Under the pieces are notes generated by a model. The model made no database searches. It had not been told where the DNA came from and worked only from the letters and a program-made list of their open reading frames with translations. Source: an archaeon (GTDB lineage Archaea > Asgardarchaeota > Heimdallarchaeia > Hodarchaeales > S146-22). Taken from it: a DNA stretch of 5,279 nucleotides. The stretch's first letter is position 1. Every line of letters starts with the position of its first letter. Below, piece after piece: positions 1 to 5,065 of this stretch. The stretch spans positions 1 to 5,279 of the forward strand of contig JAJRXH010000182.1 of the NCBI GenBank assembly GCA_024276395.1, in the 5' to 3' direction. The position numbers and the translations under genes are program-made.

Positions 1-1098
1 AAGTTCAGACATATCTGCCTTTCTTAATAATTCTAAGATTTTTTCACCCTCTAATTCGAGTGTAACTTGCTTTATTTCTGCATTTAATCGATCATTGATC
101 CTTATTTCAGTTTCACTGACTTCGGTATCAAAATGAGTCAAAGCATTACTTAGCCTCTGGTATTCAGAATCCATCCGAGGATCCGGCTCTCCAGTTTCCT
201 GCAAGTTCAAGATAAGATCCTGTAACTCTGTTAACACGGATAAATTAATGCCTTTCATAAATTCGTTAACCTTGGGATCAGCTATTTCAGCTAAGATTTC
301 TGCTAAAGAGGTAATCGCTAAAATGCTATCTCGATTACGCGCATAAAAAGATAATATCTTCTCAGGAAGCAGCTTTTCAAAGGAAATTCTACTAGTGAGG
401 GGAACAATAACTACATTTGGGAGATCAGAACCATAATAATCATTTTCACTAATGAGGATAACTTCATCATAAATCTGTGAGTACTCCAATAATTCTTCAG
501 GACTTTCTAATTTAGCAACTTCACAAAAATCGACTACCTTAGTTTGCTCTAACTTTTGATGTGTTTTTTCGTCATCATACAAGATGACCCGAGATCCCAC
601 ATCGATGCTTGTTTCTTGTTCTTTCAAAGGTTTCAAGTTTACCAAGAGGGAATCTATCTCTTTCAGTCGGCTTTCAAGAGTAGATACCAGTCCCAAGCTT
701 GCTCGAGCATATCCCTGCCTTTGTTTTATCGTTGAGAGTGATGTTCTCGGTAAAGGAAACCATAAATATGTTTTCGATTTCGAATATAACGTATTTCCAA
801 ACTCAGAAATCATTTCACGACATTTAAGATATAATTGTTCAGCATCCTTAGTCTTGATAAATTCTTCAATGTTTTCTCCAGTTTCCATGGAATGTAATGT
901 CCTTACTAACCTCACCGCAAATTTCTCGCCAATTCCTTCAATTCTACTTAAGCCAGAGATGTCAGCGTCCCGAATGGCTTGTAGGGCATTTTCTTCCGTA
1001 CCATACACCTCAATGAGACGTTCGGCAGTAGACTGCCCAACGCCACGCAGCTGTCTAAGACTAGTTATTTTTTTGCATGATTCCGCTTCATTTGACAT
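1..1098 (-). CDS. Partial CDS (N-terminal 366 codons; C-terminus lies beyond window start). Tandem helix-hairpin-helix (HhH) DNA-binding protein of unknown overall function, possibly the N-terminal part of a larger DNA-repair protein.
   Basis: Absent from the ORF track because it has no stop in the window. Hand translation of the minus strand from the ATG at 1098-1096 stays open to position 1. I checked every plus-strand triplet in phase 1 for tta/cta/tca and found none. An in-frame stop lies just upstream at 1110-1108. GAGGG (1105-1109) sits 6 nt before the ATG. The N-terminus is MSNEAESCKKITSLRQLRGVGQSTAERLIEVYGTEENALQAIRDADISGLSRIEGIGEKFAVRLVRTL, with two Gly-hydrophobic-Gly hairpins (GVG, GIG) spaced as in (HhH)2 modules. 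The rest is charged and helical-looking. Confidence 0.75.
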   Translation of the reverse strand, partial: MSNEAESCKKITSLRQLRGVGQSTAERLIEVYGTEENALQAIRDADISGLSRIEGIGEKFAVRLVRTLHSMETGENIEEFIKTKDAEQLYLKCREMISEFGNTLYSKSKTYLWFPLPRTSLSTIKQRQGYARASLGLVSTLESRLKEIDSLLVNLKPLKEQETSIDVGSRVILYDDEKTHQKLEQTKVVDFCEVAKLESPEELLEYSQIYDEVILISENDYYGSDLPNVVIVPLTSRISFEKLLPEKILSFYARNRDSILAITSLAEILAEIADPKVNEFMKGINLSVLTELQDLILNLQETGEPDPRMDSEYQRLSNALTHFDTEVSETEIRINDRLNAEIKQVTLELEGEKILELLRKADMSEL

Positions 1099-1185
1099 TT
1101 TCCGCCCTCAGTTCTCTTCCTTATTTGTCCATACATCACTTGGTTTTACAACACCATCATCATTACCCACAAACAATTTTAACTT

Positions 1186-2103
1186 TCAAGTAAAAAATGT
1201 GACCCTCTTTGGTGCAGTTTTTTCCATAAAGATCTTTAATTCTGCACGTGAACAATGTTCCGAATAAGGAATCCAAAATATTCCATTTTTAGGATCACTT
1301 TCATTAAGGACTGCCCATCCGGTTGGTATTATTTTGATCCCTGATTGAAGTCGTTTTCGATGTGGATATCGCCTCAGTATTTCAGGTTTTGAATGTTCTA
1401 ATGCTCTACGAGGCGCTAATAGGATGTTGGTGTCATCTGGATCTTCAGTAAACATTTCATAGCCAAGAGCTTCATAAACCTTCTTGATTTTTGGAGTGGC
1501 CCATATTTTTTGGTGAGTTAAACGATTCAACGCCTCAAACACTTTTTCCTTTCCAATGGTATAACACCCAATGAATTTATCATAAAACGGAAAATGTAAA
1601 GCTAGTTTCATAAGAGTATTGATGGCCTCTCGTTGTGGAGGAAATTGAAAGATTGGGCGATTATAGGTCCCATCAGCAATCATCAAGTCAACACCTTGTA
1701 TTTTTTCCAAGAAGTGATCCATGACCACTGGATCATATCTAAAATCACCAGTAAAGAATTCCCTTCGACCTTCAGACTCGAACAAAAACATTAATGACCC
1801 AATGCAATGGTTCGCCTCAAAAGCCGTGACATTAACACCATCAACTGAAAAAGAAGCATTTTCTTCAATGACGATGAAACGTTCAGAAGGTATCCCCTCT
1901 GTTAACTCAAGAATGACCTTTGTTTCTCGTGAACAAACTATCTTGGCTTCTGGGTAACTATTTAACAGTCTTTTTAGCCCTCTTGTATGATCACTATGTG
2001 CGTGACTCAGAAAAAAATATGGTTCTGTCTGTTTCAATAATCTTTTTTGCTTTGAGGGATCTGGAAATTCATCAGCCCAGAAGCGACCTAACATCAACGG
2101 CAT
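1186..2103 (-). CDS. Metallo-beta-lactamase fold beta-CASP nuclease, SNM1/PSO2/Artemis-like (DRMBL type); also comparable to bacterial ligase-associated exonucleases.
   Basis: The track ORF 1186..2136 starts at a TTG. The first ATG (2103) is preceded by GGGTGAT, which matches the GGUGAU core of the Shine-Dalgarno consensus, so 2103 is preferred. Motifs read from the translation: YFFLSHAHSDHTRGL (HxHxDH), FEANHCIGS (motif 3 His), FFTGDFRY (motif 4 Asp), MIADGTY (beta-CASP motif A), YTIGKEKVFEAL (SNM1-type IGKEK block), and C-terminal IPYSEHCSRAELKIF (motif C His; compare the eukaryotic PYSEHSS..EL block). Confidence 0.9.
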   Translation of the reverse strand: MPLMLGRFWADEFPDPSKQKRLLKQTEPYFFLSHAHSDHTRGLKRLLNSYPEAKIVCSRETKVILELTEGIPSERFIVIEENASFSVDGVNVTAFEANHCIGSLMFLFESEGRREFFTGDFRYDPVVMDHFLEKIQGVDLMIADGTYNRPIFQFPPQREAINTLMKLALHFPFYDKFIGCYTIGKEKVFEALNRLTHQKIWATPKIKKVYEALGYEMFTEDPDDTNILLAPRRALEHSKPEILRRYPHRKRLQSGIKIIPTGWAVLNESDPKNGIFWIPYSEHCSRAELKIFMEKTAPKRVTFFT

Positions 2104-2162
2104 TAAAATCACCCTAATCTCTAAGTTACAGTTCAATTAAATCATTAATAAATTTAATGGAT

Positions 2163-3077
2163 CTACAGGGCCCTTGCTCCCATTTTTTCAACATATAACG
2201 CAAGTAAATCACTCAACTTCCCTAAATACGTCTTATTAACCAAAAAAACATCAAAATCTACGATAGATAGTAAATTCTGATAAAATTTCCCCTTTTCAAA
2301 GTTTTTTCTTTTCTTGGCAACCATATTCAATGGAGTCCCTGTCATATAGGGATTAGCAGAGGGTAAAACTGTAATCGTTATCATCTTGTCATATATCGGG
2401 GTTTCGTGCACGTCACTCTCAATAGAAGGAATGACTCCATGACTGGACACCCGTAACATCTCAAGCCAATCATCAAGAGAGAGTTTACCTTGCAATATTA
2501 CTGGCAATCGATGTTTCACCAAGTTATCATCAACAAGGACCACAGCTGGATGAAGATGACCCAACAATACCTCCTCAGCCACAGCCAAATTTATTGGTGG
2601 AACATGACCATGAGCACAGCCAACCCGAGTTTCACCGAAAGCAAGTAAAGAACCTCGACTATCGTGCATCATCAATCCGCTAAATTCGTGTTTACGGAAC
2701 AACACATCATGATTACCAACAAGCAAATGTGACTGAACTCCGTTGGCATGTAACAAATCGAAAAACTCTCGCAATTCAGTAATTAACCATCGACTGTAAT
2801 GTGGCGTACGAATAAACGAAGCTCCACGTGATGTTGACTTATCATCATTAAAATGAGGGAAAGAGTGAATGAAATCTCCCAAAAGAACCAAGTAATGCAC
2901 GTTTTCTTGGTTGATCACTGCAAACAACGAGTTTAACAAGGCTCTCGACGAATCAAACGGCAGATACAGGCCACGCCGACGATATTCCGCATCATACCCA
3001 ACGTGAAGGTCTGCAACAAACAAGACCTTGCGACCTTCGAACTTACGAATTAGCCATTTCTCAAGTGTTCTTGTCAC
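2163..3077 (-). CDS. Calcineurin-like metallophosphoesterase, PdeM / archaeal SbcD-related (ligase-associated phosphoesterase-like) family.
   Basis: Track ORF with a GTG start at 3077 that overlaps the upstream gene's stop by 17 nt (3061-3077). Motifs: FVADLHVGY (DxH), LVLLGDFIHS (GDxxH), LLVGNHD, CAHGH, LGHLHP (GHxH), then RLPVI and ITVLPSANPYMTGTPLN. From memory, the ADLHxG...RG..lP start, GHxHP and lPaF..tGG tail are the pattern of PdeM-type enzymes. Confidence 0.85.
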   Translation of the reverse strand: MTRTLEKWLIRKFEGRKVLFVADLHVGYDAEYRRRGLYLPFDSSRALLNSLFAVINQENVHYLVLLGDFIHSFPHFNDDKSTSRGASFIRTPHYSRWLITELREFFDLLHANGVQSHLLVGNHDVLFRKHEFSGLMMHDSRGSLLAFGETRVGCAHGHVPPINLAVAEEVLLGHLHPAVVLVDDNLVKHRLPVILQGKLSLDDWLEMLRVSSHGVIPSIESDVHETPIYDKMITITVLPSANPYMTGTPLNMVAKKRKNFEKGKFYQNLLSIVDFDVFLVNKTYLGKLSDLLALYVEKMGARAL

Positions 3078-4278
3078 CTTCTTGTCCCACGGAAACGATT
3101 TGTTCTAGAAATTCCAATATTTTTTGCATTATTACTTCTAAAGTGACGCCAGACACTAAATTCAAGCCAGCTGCCCTCGAATGACCACCACCACTTCCTT
3201 CAAAGTGATTAAGGAGCCAAGGTAGCAAGTCTTTCGCCATGTTCACCCCAGTTCTCTCCTTAAAATAGGAAGAAGCTCTAATGCTCACTCTGGTTTCCTC
3301 TTTTCTCTGAGCAACTACCACGACAAGATCAGCTCCTAATGACAACAATGCCCTTGCTGCTGAAGATTCGTGAGAACTCACGTGAGTAAATAAGAGAATG
3401 AGATCATTAAGCATTCTTCGTCGCATTCGTTGTGCAGCCTTTATTCTGGCAATCTTCTCAGATGGTCCCATTTGCACCTGCAATAGATTCCGAGAGAGAG
3501 AATATACATCTGGATGCACGTCACAGAGATAACTCAGAACTGCGAACAAGCGTGAGGATGCTCGAGTTAAAAAACCCGAATCATAAAGAATGCCACAAGT
3601 CAATGCAATTGATACGGTCATGTTAATTTTGTATTCATTGATATATAATAAAGTCGCTATCATCTCTGACGTAGATCCACATATTGATGAATGAAGATAT
3701 AATGTAGCTTTCTCTGCAACATCATCGGAGTATTCATGATGATCAATGATGATGAAAGAAATTTCATCTTTTTCTCGCAAAATTTGCGCAGCGATGGGAC
3801 ATATCTCTAGGTTATTAGCATCCACTACTATTAGTAAAGATACATTTGAGAATTTAAGAGCATCTTTTGAATGAACTGTAATTCTTAGATAATTCATTAT
3901 TTGATCACTAATGACGCTTGCATCATCTAAAGTAAGAATGATATTACTCTTTTCCTTCAATATCTCCTTGATCAAGCATTCCATTCCTATCATTGCGCCA
4001 ATGGCATCAGGATCTGCCTGCTGATGCGTTGTAATTATAATCGTTCCTTTAGAAAGGCTCTTTTCTTGCAAAAGTAGCCATCTCAAGTTCTCAAGAAATT
4101 CTTCCATTGTTTTTGTTTCCAATTTCCCTTTATCACCATTCGTTGTCAGTTCATTGTACAATATAACTCTAATTTTAAACGAGATGAAACATTCATTTTT
4201 TTCTACAGCCTCACAAATAAACGCAAACCAACTAATTTCAAGATAATTTTGACTTGATCCATTTATAACACTGTTCAA
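3061..4278 (-). CDS. DHH/DHHA1 family phosphoesterase (RecJ-like / NrnA-like nuclease); start codon uncertain.
   Basis: Track ORF. Motifs: TTHQQADPDAIGAM (DHH motif I), LIVVDANN (II), FIIIDHHEY (III, DHH), CGILYDSGFL (IV), GSGGGHSRAAGL (DHHA1 GGGH). The 4278 start is a TTG. The first ATG is at 4107 (M58, MEEFLENL...) and puts motif I about 27 aa from the N-terminus, as in NrnA-like proteins. However, the 57 upstream codons stay open in AT-rich DNA, which argues they are coding. Confidence 0.85.
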   Translation of the reverse strand: MNSVINGSSQNYLEISWFAFICEAVEKNECFISFKIRVILYNELTTNGDKGKLETKTMEEFLENLRWLLLQEKSLSKGTIIITTHQQADPDAIGAMIGMECLIKEILKEKSNIILTLDDASVISDQIMNYLRITVHSKDALKFSNVSLLIVVDANNLEICPIAAQILREKDEISFIIIDHHEYSDDVAEKATLYLHSSICGSTSEMIATLLYINEYKINMTVSIALTCGILYDSGFLTRASSRLFAVLSYLCDVHPDVYSLSRNLLQVQMGPSEKIARIKAAQRMRRRMLNDLILLFTHVSSHESSAARALLSLGADLVVVVAQRKEETRVSIRASSYFKERTGVNMAKDLLPWLLNHFEGSGGGHSRAAGLNLVSGVTLEVIMQKILEFLEQIVSVGQEGDKNT

Positions 4279-4554
4279 GCGAACTATTCTACCATTTAAT
4301 CATCAAGTTAGCATTTGACTGTTCTTGAAGAAATATGGTTCTTTTTCATTGAATAGATTTTGATTATTTGATACATTTTACAGAAATTCGGCCATAATAC
4401 ATTCACGAGTCCTCGCAAAGATTGAACCACGAAAATTAACTAAACCTTATATCTAAAGGTTTCATACAATGAAACGTCCACGTGGGAATGTTTTTATCGA
4501 ACCTTTCCATCAATGAAAATCCCACGACCAAGAAGGTGCAACATTTCCATTCTC

Positions 4555-4570
4555 GCAAGGCTTTTATAAA
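4555..4570 (+). promoter_or_regulatory. Archaeal-type promoter candidate for the 5S precursor: purine-rich BRE-like GCAAGG followed by TATA box TTTTATAAA.
   Basis: gcaaggcttttataaa read at 4555-4570. A start about 22-27 nt downstream of the TATA box would fall near 4590-4596, just before the first leader nucleotides that pair with the trailer (4596 onward). Confidence 0.5.
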
Positions 4571-4595
4571 GATCCCCCCAGAGTGTTACATGTCA

Positions 4596-4614
4596 AACAA
4601 GAAAGAGACGCGTG
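4596..4614 (+). other. Leader arm of the precursor processing stem.
   Basis: GAGACGCGTG (4605-4614) is the perfect reverse complement of CACGCGTCTC (4777-4786). Weaker outer pairing: 4600-4604 with 4801-4805 and 4596-4598 with 4807-4809. Confidence 0.7.
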
Positions 4615-4617
4615 AAA

Positions 4618-4631
4618 GGGTGCCGGAGGTT
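4618..4631 (+). other. Leader-side strand of the bulge-helix-bulge-like motif: GGGTG outer helix, CCGG central helix, AG(G) bulge, GTT inner helix. Predicted cut at 4628|4629.
   Basis: Base pairs read by hand: 4618-4622 with 4755-4751; 4623-4626 with 4747-4744; 4629-4631 with 4743-4741. Confidence 0.65.
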
Positions 4632-4749
4632 AAGCCCGCCGCCGCCTGGCAGAGTACTGCGGTGCGAGAGCCCGCGGGAAACGTCGGGTGTCGACCCTCG
4701 GGTCGGCCATAGGGGCGGGGCAACACCCGGTCTCATACCGAACCCGGAA
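4629..4749 (+). rRNA. rrf: Circularly permuted 5S rRNA gene: 3' half 4629-4696, CUCG cap 4697-4700, 5' half 4701-4749.
   Basis: The segment 4701-4749, GGTCGGCCATAGGGGCGGGGCAACACCCGGTCTCATACCGAACCCGGAA, matches the archaeal 5S 5' portion: helix I 5' strand, AUAG loop A, helix II, and helix III/loop C. The segment 4629-4696, GTTAAGCCCGCCGCCGCCTGGCAGAGTACTGCGGTGCGAGAGCCCGCGGGAAACGTCGGGTGTCGACC, matches the 3' portion: GUUAAGCC, helix II 3' strand, AGUAC loop E, the helix IV hairpin with CGAGAG, GGGAAAC, helix V, and helix I 3' strand. Supporting pairings: helix I 4690-4696/4701-4707; helix II 4634-4640/4714-4721 with one bulged G; helix IV 4657-4662/4672-4677; helix V 4645-4650/4683-4688. Confidence 0.85.
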
Positions 4750-4755
4750 ACACCC
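4741..4755 (+). other. Trailer-side strand of the bulge-helix-bulge-like motif: AAC inner helix, CCGG central helix, AAA 3-nt bulge, CACCC outer helix. Predicted cut at 4749|4750.
   Basis: Same pairings as the leader-side feature. The trailer side is a canonical helix / 4-bp helix / 3-nt bulge / helix half-site. Confidence 0.7.
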
Positions 4756-4769
4756 GAGGTTGCGACCTT
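4756..4769 (+). other. Small trailer hairpin, GAGGT-UGCG-ACCTT (5 bp including one G-U, UNCG-type tetraloop).
   Basis: Read directly: 4756-4760 pairs with 4769-4765, loop 4761-4764. It lies between the BHB outer helix and the 10-bp clamp. Confidence 0.4.
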
Positions 4770-4776
4770 CAGAATG

Positions 4777-4809
4777 CACGCGTCTCGGACAATGTCCTCT
4801 TTTCTCGTT
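4777..4809 (+). other. Trailer arm of the precursor processing stem, interrupted by a GGAC-AAT-GTCC mini-hairpin (4787-4797).
   Basis: CACGCGTCTC (4777-4786) pairs perfectly with 4605-4614. 4801-4805 and 4807-4809 can pair with 4600-4604 and 4596-4598. Confidence 0.65.
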
Positions 4810-4864: not shown

Positions 4865-5065
4865 TAATAACTTCTTTTACCTCTGAATGATCTTGTTCTT
4901 GATGTTCTTGACAGAAAAATTTCGGTAGATTTTTCAAATTAACATCAAATTCCTATCATTATCCACTTGAAGATGGAAGAAATAGCTATTTCACCACGAT
5001 GAACTAACTGTCAACCATCTTACAATCATTTCACTTTCTCTTCATTTCATTTCTCCTTAAAATCA

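What the first reader, a model, noticed from the sequence alone, without database searches (positions are those of the whole stretch)
4689..4708. Native 5S termini are fused by a CUCG tetraloop, implying a covalently circular (or re-opened) 5S rRNA
Seen in sequence: the helix I strands 4690-4696 and 4701-4707 (6 Watson-Crick pairs plus one G-U) are connected by only 4 nt, C4697-G4700. Helix I is therefore a capped hairpin instead of the open end found in collinear 5S rRNAs. Inference: after BHB cleavage and ligation the product is a closed 121-nt circle (4629-4749). It then either functions in the ribosome as a circle, which would resist exonucleases, or an unknown nuclease must re-open it at the cap to restore normal termini. 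Either outcome would be unusual for 5S rRNA.
Basis: inference. Interest (0 to 1): 0.7.

Follow-up and report, generated by a model that had tools for sequence, protein, structure and literature searches.

The report
Permuted 5S rRNA gene, capped helix I
This archaeal 5S ribosomal RNA gene is written back-to-front, with its normal ends joined by a 4-base loop and splicing-type cut sites at its new ends, so the finished 5S RNA is most likely a closed circle, which the papers I could search do not describe for 5S.

Summary
4690-4696 pairs with 4701-4707 (6 Watson-Crick pairs plus 1 G-U) around the loop CUCG at 4697-4700.

- **Identity of the stem.** These strands are 5S helix I. Rfam RF00001 positions 1-51 match 4699-4749 and positions 52-114 match 4629-4693, so the gene is circularly permuted. 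The break lies just 3' of helix III.
- **Chance.** The hairpin alone is not beyond chance: 11% of shuffles contain one as good. Its position and the comparative evidence carry the case.
- **Relatives.** I found six more permuted 5S genes, giving three lineages. One is probably Asgard; the window's own lineage is possibly related to Baldr-/Odinarchaeia.
  - All six escape Rfam's gathering threshold.
  - In all of them helix I is a closed hairpin: every cell pairs across the six aligned sequences, and 4 of 7 pairs change on both sides.
  - Every cap is a 4-nt YNMG loop (CUCG, UCCG or UUCG) closed by a C-G pair.
- **Processing signal.** Six of the seven loci have a strict bulge-helix-bulge motif at the new ends. 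Its outer helix covaries. Canonical cleavage plus ligation rebuilds the canonical GGAAGUUAAGCC segment.

Best reading: the tRNA-splicing endonuclease and ligase make a 121-nt circular 5S RNA, and it probably stays circular. No RNA data were available. The literature I could search contains no such case for 5S.

The parts
4545..4570 (+). Putative archaeal promoter. The block TTCCATTCTCGCAAGGCTTTTATAAA holds the TATA box TTTTATAAA at 4562-4570.
   Evidence: Identical in the window and L004 while the sequence further upstream is not conserved. Nearly identical in L023. Calling it a promoter is inference.
4585..4596 (+). Conserved GTTACATGTCAA, the likely transcription start region about 25 nt downstream of the TATA box.
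   Evidence: Invariant in the window, L004 and L023. The function is inferred.
4605..4614 (+). 5' strand of the distal processing stem (GAGACGCGTG). It pairs with 4777-4786.
   Evidence: Complementarity read. Predicted by co-folding of the flanks. Present in L004 and L023 with changes that keep pairing.
4618..4622 (+). BHB outer helix, 5' strand (GGGTG). It pairs with CACCC at 4751-4755.
   Evidence: It covaries: GGCG/CGCC in L004 and L023.
4623..4626 (+). BHB central 4-bp helix, leader strand (CCGG). It pairs with CCGG at 4744-4747.
4627..4629 (+). 5' three-nucleotide bulge AGG. The predicted cut is AG|G, so G4629 becomes the 5' end.
   Evidence: The cut position follows the canonical BHB rule, which I apply from established knowledge and did not test.
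4629..4696 (+). 3' portion of 5S rRNA (Rfam RF00001 positions 52 to about 117): GUUAAG strand, 3' strand of helix II, helices V and IV, 3' strand of helix I.
   Evidence: 22.7 bits, model 52-114. Helix covariation.
4690..4696 (+). Helix I, 3' strand (GUCGACC).
4697..4700 (+). CUCG tetraloop that joins the native 3' and 5' ends. It is YNMG-class and closed by C4696-G4701.
   Evidence: The same cap occurs in L004 and L023. L011 has UCCG, and L012, L018 and L020 have UUCG.
4701..4707 (+). Helix I, 5' strand (GGUCGGC).
4701..4749 (+). 5' portion of 5S rRNA (Rfam positions 3-51): helix I 5' strand, loop A, helix II 5' strand, helix III with loop C, and GGAA.
   Evidence: 35.8 bits, E 9e-7, model 1-51 on 4699-4749.
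4744..4747 (+). BHB central helix, 3' strand. It is the CCGG of the 3' strand of helix III, borrowed by the precursor structure.
4748..4750 (+). 3' three-nucleotide bulge AAA. The predicted cut is AA|A, so A4749 becomes the 3' end.
   Evidence: The bulge is AAU in L023.
4751..4755 (+). BHB outer helix, 3' strand (CACCC).
4756..4769 (+). Small hairpin in the trailer: stem AGGU/ACCU with a UGCG loop.
   Evidence: The stem covaries (GGAC/GUCC in L004, GGGU/ACCC in L023) while the loop UGCG is kept. Its role is unknown.
4777..4786 (+). 3' strand of the distal processing stem (CACGCGTCTC).
4797..4806 (+). T-rich stretch that may be the terminator of the precursor, which would be about 210 nt long.
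   Evidence: Read. Inference only.

Best explanation
The region 4629-4749 is a functional, circularly permuted 5S rRNA gene in a low-GC archaeon that is probably thermophilic.

1. A precursor of about 210 nt is transcribed from its own promoter.
2. Leader and trailer pair to form a distal stem and a bulge-helix-bulge (BHB) motif. The motif has an outer helix 4618-4622/4751-4755, a central helix 4623-4626/4744-4747, and bulges AGG and AAA.
3. The tRNA-splicing endonuclease EndA cuts after the second nucleotide of each bulge, and the RtcB-type ligase joins A4749 to G4629.
4. This rebuilds the conserved strand ...CCGAACCCGGAA-GUUAAGCC... on the 3' side of helix III and produces a 121-nt covalently closed RNA.

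The native 5S ends never exist as ends. Helix I is a 7-bp hairpin capped by a C(CUCG)G tetraloop. I think this cap is a permanent structural element and that the circle itself enters the ribosome.

Shown here: the permutation, the capped helix I with covariation, the BHB with covariation, and the restoration of the canonical sequence in silico.

Inferred: cleavage by EndA, ligation, and persistence of the circle.

My probabilities: functional permuted gene about 0.95; BHB cleavage and ligation to a circle about 0.85; the circle as the mature ribosomal form about 0.65.
For: (1) Permutation. Rfam model 1-51 matches 4699-4749 and model 52-114 matches 4629-4693, so the two matches are contiguous in the model but swapped in the DNA. 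The re-ordered sequence aligns collinearly with a normal archaeal 5S, with 89 of 117 positions identical and a seamless junction.

(2) Not an assembly artefact or a pseudogene. The same arrangement occurs in independent assemblies. L004 and L023 are syntenic relatives whose neighbouring proteins are only 52-54% identical to the window's. L011, L012, L018 and L020 were found separately. On the six aligned sequences helices I, II, III and IV are 98.1% paired, 13 pairs change on both sides, 0 of 500 shuffles reach this, and pairing collapses when partners are slid.

(3) Cap. The linker is always 4 nt. It is CUCG in the three lineage A loci, UCCG in L011 and UUCG in the three lineage C loci, and it always sits on a C-G closing pair. 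The stem beneath differs in length: 7, 9 and 8 bp. All three loops fit the YNMG family of stable tetraloops (PMC2346598).

(4) BHB. A strict motif (4-bp central helix, two 3-nt bulges, outer helix of at least 4 bp) is present in the five loci the script flagged and, read by eye, in L023. That is six of seven loci. The outer helix covaries: GGGUG/CACCC, GGCG/CGCC, UUCGU/ACGAA, GAUUCAU/AUGAAUC.

(5) The cut position differs by one nucleotide between lineages (GGAA|G versus GGAAG|U or GGCAG|U). Each still regenerates the canonical 12-nt GGAAGUUAAGCC or GGCAGUUAAGC segment. Only ligation would select for that.

(6) Precedents.
- Permuted SRP RNA of Thermoproteus tenax is circularised by the splicing machinery and functions as a circle (PMC4731332).
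- E. coli ribosomes tolerate a 5S whose native ends are joined by a 4-nt connector (PMC7283268).
- Brown-algal mitochondrial 5S has a closed helix I (PMC4267664).

(7) A tRNA gene with an intron at a non-canonical position lies on the same contigs as the lineage C genes. The contigs therefore carry another likely substrate of the splicing machinery.
Against: - No RNA-level evidence was available: no junction reads, end mapping or RNase R data.
- The inner helix of the BHB is nearly absent. It has 0-1 bp with 3-nt bulges, or 3 bp if the 5' bulge is read as 2 nt. The motif is therefore of the relaxed kind, and its cleavability depends on an endonuclease I could not examine.
- L012 has a 31-nt hairpin inserted in the leader strand of the central helix, so the strict motif is lost there.
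- I could not check whether the same genomes also carry a normal 5S gene.
- Circular pre-16S and pre-23S rRNAs are usually re-linearised in archaea (PMC12918454, PMC7758197), so a circle need not be the end product.
- CUCG is not one of the classic UNCG loops.
Confidence: 0.65

Rival explanations
1. Circular intermediate, re-opened at the cap. The BHB pathway makes the circle, and an unknown endonuclease then cuts in or next to the 4-nt cap. The mature 5S is linear with near-normal ends at the tip of helix I.
For: Circular pre-16S and pre-23S rRNAs are normally re-linearised, and in Pyrococcus furiosus the circular 23S is opened by excision of helix 98 (PMC7758197, PMC12918454). Permuted tRNA genes are expressed through a circle that is re-opened (cited in PMC4267664).
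Against: The linker is only 4 nt in all seven loci, and it is always a YNMG loop on a C-G pair while the stem below it varies. This is conservation of a structural cap. It is not a spacer with recognition elements such as a tRNA-like fold or H98. I know of no nuclease that opens such loops.
Confidence: 0.12
2. Linear permuted 5S. The precursor is trimmed at the BHB, or by other nucleases, but is never ligated. The ribosome carries a 5S with a closed helix I and a nick 3' of helix III, as in brown-algal mitochondria where the product itself is permuted.
For: Brown-algal mitochondrial 5S functions with a closed helix I and relocated ends (PMC4267664). E. coli tolerates 5S opened in loop C or loop D when tethered to 23S (PMC7283268).
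Against: Cut sites that differ by one nucleotide between lineages all regenerate exactly the canonical GGAAGUUAAGCC length, which has no purpose without ligation. RNAs excised at a BHB in archaea are ligated as a rule, for example SRP RNA (PMC4731332) and pre-rRNAs (PMC12918454). The nick would lie in a highly conserved strand.
Confidence: 0.12
3. Non-functional remnant or artefact. The locus would be a decaying rearranged 5S pseudogene, a collapsed tandem repeat or an assembly chimera, and the real 5S lies elsewhere.
For: Rfam reports no 5S at gathering threshold in the window. The hairpin alone is within chance. The rest of the genome could not be inspected.
Against: The arrangement recurs in independent assemblies from NCBI, ENA, JGI and Logan. 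All helices and the flanking stems show compensatory changes. The promoter block is conserved. The flanks are unique sequence rather than 5S repeats. GC content is 66-69% in a genome of about 35% GC.
Confidence: 0.03

Closest known systems
Permuted, circular SRP RNA of Thermoproteus tenax (Plagens et al. 2015, PMC4731332)
   Same: It is a permuted gene for a universal structured RNA. The new termini lie next to a functionally important element. [quoted passage not shown] The canonical gene had seemed to be missing from these genomes.
   Different: It is a different RNA, SRP rather than 5S rRNA, and it was demonstrated experimentally in one crenarchaeal genus. Here the evidence is sequence only, comes from three other lineages, and the product would be a ribosomal RNA.
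Engineered circularly permuted 5S (cp5S) of E. coli (Huang et al. 2020, PMC7283268)
   Same: The native 5' and 3' ends of 5S are joined by a 4-nt connector and new ends are opened elsewhere. The ribosomes function.
   Different: It is artificial. The cp5S is inserted into 23S rRNA through tethers at loop C or loop D, so it is neither a free molecule nor a circle.
Brown-algal and other stramenopile mitochondrial permuted 5S (Valach et al. 2014, PMC4267664; their mtPerm-5S model)
   Same: It is a natural 5S in which helix I is a closed hairpin.
   Different: The ends lie at the three-way junction and stay open. There is no BHB and no ligation. It is organellar and its sequence is highly divergent. 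The window gave no gathering-level Rfam match to any family.
Permuted tRNA genes (Cyanidioschyzon merolae; Thermofilum), as cited in PMC4267664
   Same: The 3' half is encoded before the 5' half, there is a BHB at the new ends, and a circular RNA is formed.
   Different: The tRNA circle is an intermediate. The linker between the native ends is removed by RNase P and tRNase Z. Here the linker is a 4-nt stable tetraloop.
Circular pre-16S and pre-23S rRNAs, and the circularly permuted 23S of Pyrococcus and Thermococcus (PMC7758197, PMC12918454, bioRxiv 10.64898/2026.03.23.713588)
   Same: A BHB in a processing stem, EndA cleavage and ligation circularise an rRNA. 23S may remain circular or permuted in the ribosome.
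   Different: Those genes are collinear and only the RNA becomes circular or permuted. The 2026 paper states that 5S is not processed this way. Low-level 5S circles reported in Sulfolobus and Pyrococcus come from normal genes without a BHB.

Membership tests
5S rRNA (Rfam RF00001) | Sequence and structure match to the covariance model | tested here: met
   The match comes in two pieces: model 1-51 at 4699-4749 (35.8 bits) and model 52-114 at 4629-4693 (22.7 bits). Together they cover the whole model. The intact locus scores only 21.8 bits against a gathering score of 38 because of the permutation.
5S rRNA (Rfam RF00001) | Three-way junction with helices I-V supported by covariation | tested here: met
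   Helices I, II, III and IV are 98.1% paired, 13 pairs change on both sides, and 0 of 500 shuffles reach this. MFE folds of the circles give the 5S shape for the window, L004 and L011 but not for L012, whose linear fold does show it. Helix V is poorly aligned and was not counted.
5S rRNA (Rfam RF00001) | Collinear gene with an open helix I formed by the 5' and 3' ends | tested here: not met
   The gene order is 3' part, 4-nt loop, 5' part.
BHB-dependent permuted or circularised archaeal RNAs (SRP RNA of T. tenax, permuted tRNAs) | Bulge-helix-bulge at the new termini: a 4-bp helix flanked by two 3-nt bulges on opposite strands | tested here: met
   A strict motif is present in the window, L004, L011, L018 and L020 and in L023. 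The outer helix covaries. The inner helix is weak, so this is the relaxed form. L012 has the motif disrupted by a 31-nt insertion.
BHB-dependent permuted or circularised archaeal RNAs | Canonical cuts plus ligation restore the contiguous functional sequence | tested here: met
   In silico, the junctions are GGAA|GUUAAGCC, GGAAG|UUAAGCC and GGCAG|UUAAGC. All have the canonical length, and the circles are 121-125 nt.
BHB-dependent permuted or circularised archaeal RNAs | Circular RNA detected (junction reads, RNase R resistance) | not testable with these tools
   No transcriptome data were accessible.
BHB-dependent permuted or circularised archaeal RNAs | EndA and RtcB encoded in the genome | not tested
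Both enzymes are near-universal in archaea (my own knowledge).
YNMG / UNCG stable tetraloops | Four-nucleotide loop Y-N-M-G | tested here: met
   The loops are CUCG, UCCG and UUCG. The motif definition is taken from PMC2346598.
YNMG / UNCG stable tetraloops | C-G closing pair, as in cUUCGg | tested here: met
   C4696-G4701 in the window, and the equivalent pair in all seven loci.
YNMG / UNCG stable tetraloops | Characteristic 3D fold (syn G, trans Y.G pair) and extra thermal stability for CUCG specifically | not testable with these tools
   This needs NMR or melting data.
Stramenopile mitochondrial permuted 5S (mtPerm-5S) | Match to that model, with ends at the three-way junction and no ligation | tested here: not met
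   No Rfam family reached its gathering score in the window. The break is 3' of helix III rather than at the junction.

The most novel reading that the evidence does not exclude
A set of archaea, including at least one Asgard-like lineage and a thermophilic lineage possibly near Baldr-/Odinarchaeia, have lost the collinear 5S gene. They build their ribosomes with a covalently closed circular 5S rRNA made by the tRNA-splicing endonuclease and ligase. This would be the first small rRNA with no ends at all. It would also explain 5S genes that appear to be missing in such genomes.
Probability: 0.55. Interest if true: 0.88.

Novelty: new variant of a known kind. Interest (0 to 1): 0.8.

Why it matters
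- **A new state for 5S rRNA.** 5S rRNA is treated as a collinear, linear, autonomous molecule in cellular genomes, and recent work states that archaeal 5S is not processed by circularisation (PMC12918454). A natural, conserved, permuted 5S gene whose product is a circle would overturn that.
- **More work for the splicing machinery.** It would extend the non-tRNA role of this machinery from SRP RNA to a ribosomal RNA.
- **A natural counterpart to an engineered molecule.** It would be the natural equivalent of the engineered cp5S.
- **Genome annotation.** All seven loci are invisible to Rfam at gathering threshold. Such genomes will be scored as lacking 5S, which affects genome-quality standards that require 5S and any inference of gene loss.
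- **Asgard archaea.** If the Asgard affiliation holds, it adds an unexpected RNA-processing trait to the closest archaeal relatives of eukaryotes.
- **A ready search tool.** The covariance model built here scores permuted genes at 107-141 bits and normal 5S at about 40 bits. It gives a direct way to survey all archaeal genomes.

Tried and rejected
1. **Whole-window Rfam and tRNA scans** found nothing. The evalue mode aligned only the 5' part well. Searching the two parts as separate stretches resolved this.
2. **The genome-contig scan** used a pattern that was too specific (GTTAAGCC...CATAG...GAACCCGGAA). It returned only false positives: the end of 23S followed by a normal 5S in two Thermoplasmatota, and one random match.
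3. **The metagenome scan** returned 6 loci. Four were chance matches and two were real. The viral-contig scan returned none.
4. **The chance test of the hairpin alone** showed it is not significant, so I do not rest the case on it.
5. **MFE folding of the precursors** gives the 5S core and the distal stems but does not draw the BHB cleanly. An explicit motif search was needed.
6. **Synteny walks that found no 5S:** homologs of the L012 membrane protein at 61-70% identity (L014-L017) and Baldrarchaeia-like L15e contigs (L021, L022).
7. **Tandem-repeat, pseudogene and chimera explanations** were rejected (see the rival explanations).
8. **Taxonomy from L15e** is only suggestive. Baldr-/Odinarchaeota-named sequences are 69% identical, against 63-67% for many Euryarchaeota.
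9. **MAFFT misaligned helix I of L011**. I used the alignment fitted to the covariance model together with a hand-defined structure. Such an alignment leans towards the structure it was fitted to.

Full report
**Observation**

The window is a 5279-bp contig of about 35% GC. It carries a GC island of 63-68% at roughly 4600-4800. The hairpin is there as described. GTCGACC (4690-4696) pairs with GGTCGGC (4701-4707) through six Watson-Crick pairs and one G-U (U4691.G4706). The loop is CTCG (4697-4700).

As a bare hairpin it is not remarkable. 548 of 5000 dinucleotide-preserving shuffles of 4629-4749 contain a stem of at least 7 bp with a 4-nt loop, and the window holds six other such hairpins. Its meaning comes from where it sits and from its relatives.

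**What the locus is**

Rfam at gathering threshold finds nothing in the window. In evalue mode RF00001 reaches only 21.8 bits, with just model positions 1 to about 50 aligned convincingly. Searching the two parts as separate stretches is clearer:

| Window stretch | RF00001 model positions | Score |
|---|---|---|
| 4699-4749 | 1-51 | 35.8 bits, E 9e-7 |
| 4629-4693 | 52-114 | 22.7 bits, E 0.0035 |

The two matches are contiguous in the model (51|52) but swapped in the DNA.

- The re-ordered sequence (4701-4749 followed by 4629-4696) aligns collinearly with a normal archaeal 5S. 89 of 117 positions are identical and the junction CCGGAAGTTAAGCC is seamless.
- The locus is therefore a circularly permuted 5S gene.
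- Rfam positions 3-9 fall on 4701-4707. Positions 111-114 fall on 4690-4693, and 4694-4696 continue to 115-117. The hairpin is helix I, and the CUCG loop takes the place of the two outermost consensus pairs.
- The break lies on the 3' side of helix III, in the conserved GGAA|GUUAAG strand. It is not in the apical loop C.

**Relatives**

The neighbouring metallophosphoesterase has only two close relatives, at 52-54% identity. Their contigs carry the same gene cluster and a syntenic permuted 5S: L004 (GCA_054014235.1), its Logan duplicate L005, and L023 (ENA REYS20-1 scaffold). A pattern scan of JGI metagenomes that required the permuted order gave two more real genes, L011 and L012. Homologs of a membrane protein next to the L012 gene led to L020, L018 and the partial L019. 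That makes seven distinct permuted 5S genes in three lineages:

| Lineage | Loci | Helix I cap |
|---|---|---|
| A | window, L004, L023 | CUCG |
| B | L011 (29% GC contig) | UCCG |
| C | L012, L020, L018 | UUCG |

- A covariance model built from four of them scores the permuted genes at 107-141 bits and normal Thermoplasmatota 5S at about 40 bits.
- None of the permuted genes reaches Rfam's gathering score.

Affiliation:

- Lineage C is probably Asgard. Most named homologs of the membrane protein are from Sigyn-, Hod-, Thor- and Promethearchaeota at 48-53% identity. The closest named one (64%) carries a different label, Candidatus Deferrimicrobium.
- Lineage A is possibly related to Baldr-/Odinarchaeia. 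Its L15e is 69% identical to a cluster with those names, but many Euryarchaeota are at 63-67%. This is suggestive only.
- The 66-69% GC of the lineage A RNA in a 35% GC genome suggests a thermophile. That is inference.

**Helix I and its cap across the family**

On the six-sequence alignment (A2), the seven helix I pairs are paired in 100% of cells. Four pairs change on both sides, two change on one side through G-U, and one is invariant. For helices I-IV together:

- 98.1% of cells pair, against 83.6% in shuffles.
- 13 pairs change on both sides.
- 0 of 500 shuffles reach these values.
- Sliding the partners by one column drops pairing to about 45%.

The alignment was fitted to a model, which favours the structure. 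The pairs can also be read directly from the sequences. L023 adds a change from U.G to U-A. The stem is 7, 9 and 8 bp in lineages A, B and C. The linker is always exactly four nucleotides, always Y-N-C-G, and always closed by C-G: C(CUCG)G, C(UCCG)G and C(UUCG)G. These fit the YNMG family of stable tetraloops, of which cUUCGg is the prototype (PMC2346598).

**The new ends**

An explicit motif search asked for a perfect 4-bp central helix, 3-nt bulges on opposite strands and an outer helix of at least 3 bp. It finds one dominant solution in five loci, each with an outer helix of at least 4 bp. L023 has the same motif by inspection.

| Locus | Outer helix | Central helix | 5' bulge | 3' bulge |
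|---|---|---|---|---|
| window | GGGUG/CACCC | CCGG/CCGG | AG\|G | AA\|A |
| L004 | GGCG/CGCC | CCGG/CCGG | AG\|G | AA\|A |
| L023 | GGCG/CGCC | CCGG/CCGG | AG\|G | AA\|U |
| L011 | 16 bp | UCCG/CGGA | AA\|U | AG\|A |
| L020 | UUCGU/ACGAA | GCCG/CGGC | AG\|U | AG\|A |
| L018 | GAUUCAU/AUGAAUC | GUCG/CGGC | AA\|U | AG\|A |

- The outer helices covary.
- The 3' strand of the central helix is the 3' strand of helix III itself.
- I applied the canonical rule that the cut falls after the second bulge nucleotide. This rule is established knowledge of the archaeal splicing endonuclease and was not tested here.
- Under that rule the ligated junctions are GGAA|GUUAAGCC, GGAAG|UUAAGCC and GGCAG|UUAAGC. 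The cut position differs by one nucleotide between lineages, yet each restores the canonical length of this strand.
- The resulting circles are 121-125 nt, and the window's is 4629-4749 (121 nt).

That precision makes sense only if the ends are ligated.

Caveats on the motif:

- The inner helix is almost absent, so this is the relaxed form of the motif.
- L012 has a 31-nt hairpin inserted in the leader strand of the central helix, which breaks the strict motif.

Around the BHB, lineage A also conserves three other elements:

- a promoter-like block at 4545-4570
- a distal stem, 4605-4614 with 4777-4786
- a small trailer hairpin whose stem covaries under a fixed UGCG loop

**Mechanism and alternatives**

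The most economical reading has four steps:

1. An independent transcript of about 210 nt is made.
2. The tRNA-splicing endonuclease cuts it at the BHB.
3. The RtcB-type ligase joins the ends.
4. The product is a 121-nt circle with every 5S element intact and helix I closed by a stable tetraloop.

Three precedents make each step plausible:

- The permuted SRP RNA of Thermoproteus tenax is made exactly this way and works as a circle (PMC4731332).
- E. coli ribosomes accept a 5S whose native ends are linked by a 4-nt connector (PMC7283268).
- Brown-algal mitochondrial 5S has a closed helix I (PMC4267664).

Whether the circle persists cannot be decided from sequence. I favour persistence, at about 0.65. 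The linker has no room or features for a processing signal, and its conservation as a YNMG loop on a C-G pair over a varying stem points to a structural role.

The rivals are:

- re-opening at the cap, by analogy with circular pre-16S/23S and the P. furiosus 23S (PMC7758197, PMC12918454)
- a nicked linear product without ligation
- a non-functional remnant, which conservation, covariation and recurrence in independent assemblies make very unlikely

**Novelty**

Eight full-text searches on this question found no report of a permuted or maturely circular 5S rRNA in archaea.

- A 2026 study states that archaeal 5S, unlike 16S and 23S, is not processed through circularisation.
- Low-level 5S circles in Sulfolobus and Pyrococcus come from normal genes without a BHB.
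- The mechanism is of a known kind, since permuted tRNA and SRP RNA genes are rescued by BHB circularisation. The substrate (5S rRNA), the end-less product and the lineages are new.

I rate it a new variant of a known kind, with high interest.

**Limits**

- No RNA data could be consulted.
- The rest of these genomes could not be inspected for a normal 5S, EndA or RtcB.
- The taxonomy of lineages A and B is uncertain.
- Only three independent lineages are known.

Noticed in passing
L012 about 520-700, minus strand (leader of the permuted 5S); compare L020 1430-1545: Relative to L020, L012 carries a 31-nt insertion (CAAAACTAAATTCGGCGAACCGAATTTAGAC). It forms a perfect 8-bp hairpin and sits inside the leader strand of the BHB central helix. 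It also duplicates the CCGAATT next to the cut site. Whether this gene is still processed is unclear.
   Followed up: partly
window 4756-4769; L004 and L023 trailers: A small hairpin lies between the BHB outer helix and the distal stem. Its stem covaries (AGGU/ACCU, GGAC/GUCC, GGGU/ACCC) while the UGCG tetraloop is kept. It may be a protein-binding or folding element of the precursor.
   Followed up: partly
L012 2425-2531 (+) and L018 about 1000-888 (-): A tRNA (anticodon region CCUUGGGAG, probably Pro-UGG, with an encoded CCA) is interrupted by an insert of about 32 nt in the D-arm region. This is a non-canonical intron position. ARAGORN misses the gene and Rfam only just reaches threshold (30-31 bits). 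It lies on the same contigs as the lineage C permuted 5S.
   Followed up: partly
window 1-4278, minus strand; L004 8977-13292; L023 4965-10138: A conserved four-gene cluster lies next to the 5S: a DHH/DHHA1 phosphoesterase, a calcineurin-like metallophosphoesterase, a DRMBL-type metallo-beta-lactamase and a protein with HhH and MutS_V domains (MutS2-like). It looks like a DNA repair or nuclease module. The metallophosphoesterase has almost no relatives outside this lineage.
   Followed up: partly
L021 7931-7980; L022 4394-4445: The Rfam eL15-Euryarchaeota ribosomal protein leader (RF03144) is detected just above threshold upstream of L15e. Close relatives of these L15e sequences are labelled Baldrarchaeia, so the contigs are probably outside Euryarchaeota.
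   Followed up: no
window 4914-4935: A 9-bp hairpin GAAAAATTT-CGGT-AGATTTTTC lies in the AT-rich spacer downstream of the 5S. Its meaning is unknown.
   Followed up: no
L001 113-235: The 3' end of the normal 5S of this Thermoplasmatales MAG does not obviously complement the 5' strand of its helix I in the stretch I aligned. I used this gene only as a control.
   Followed up: no
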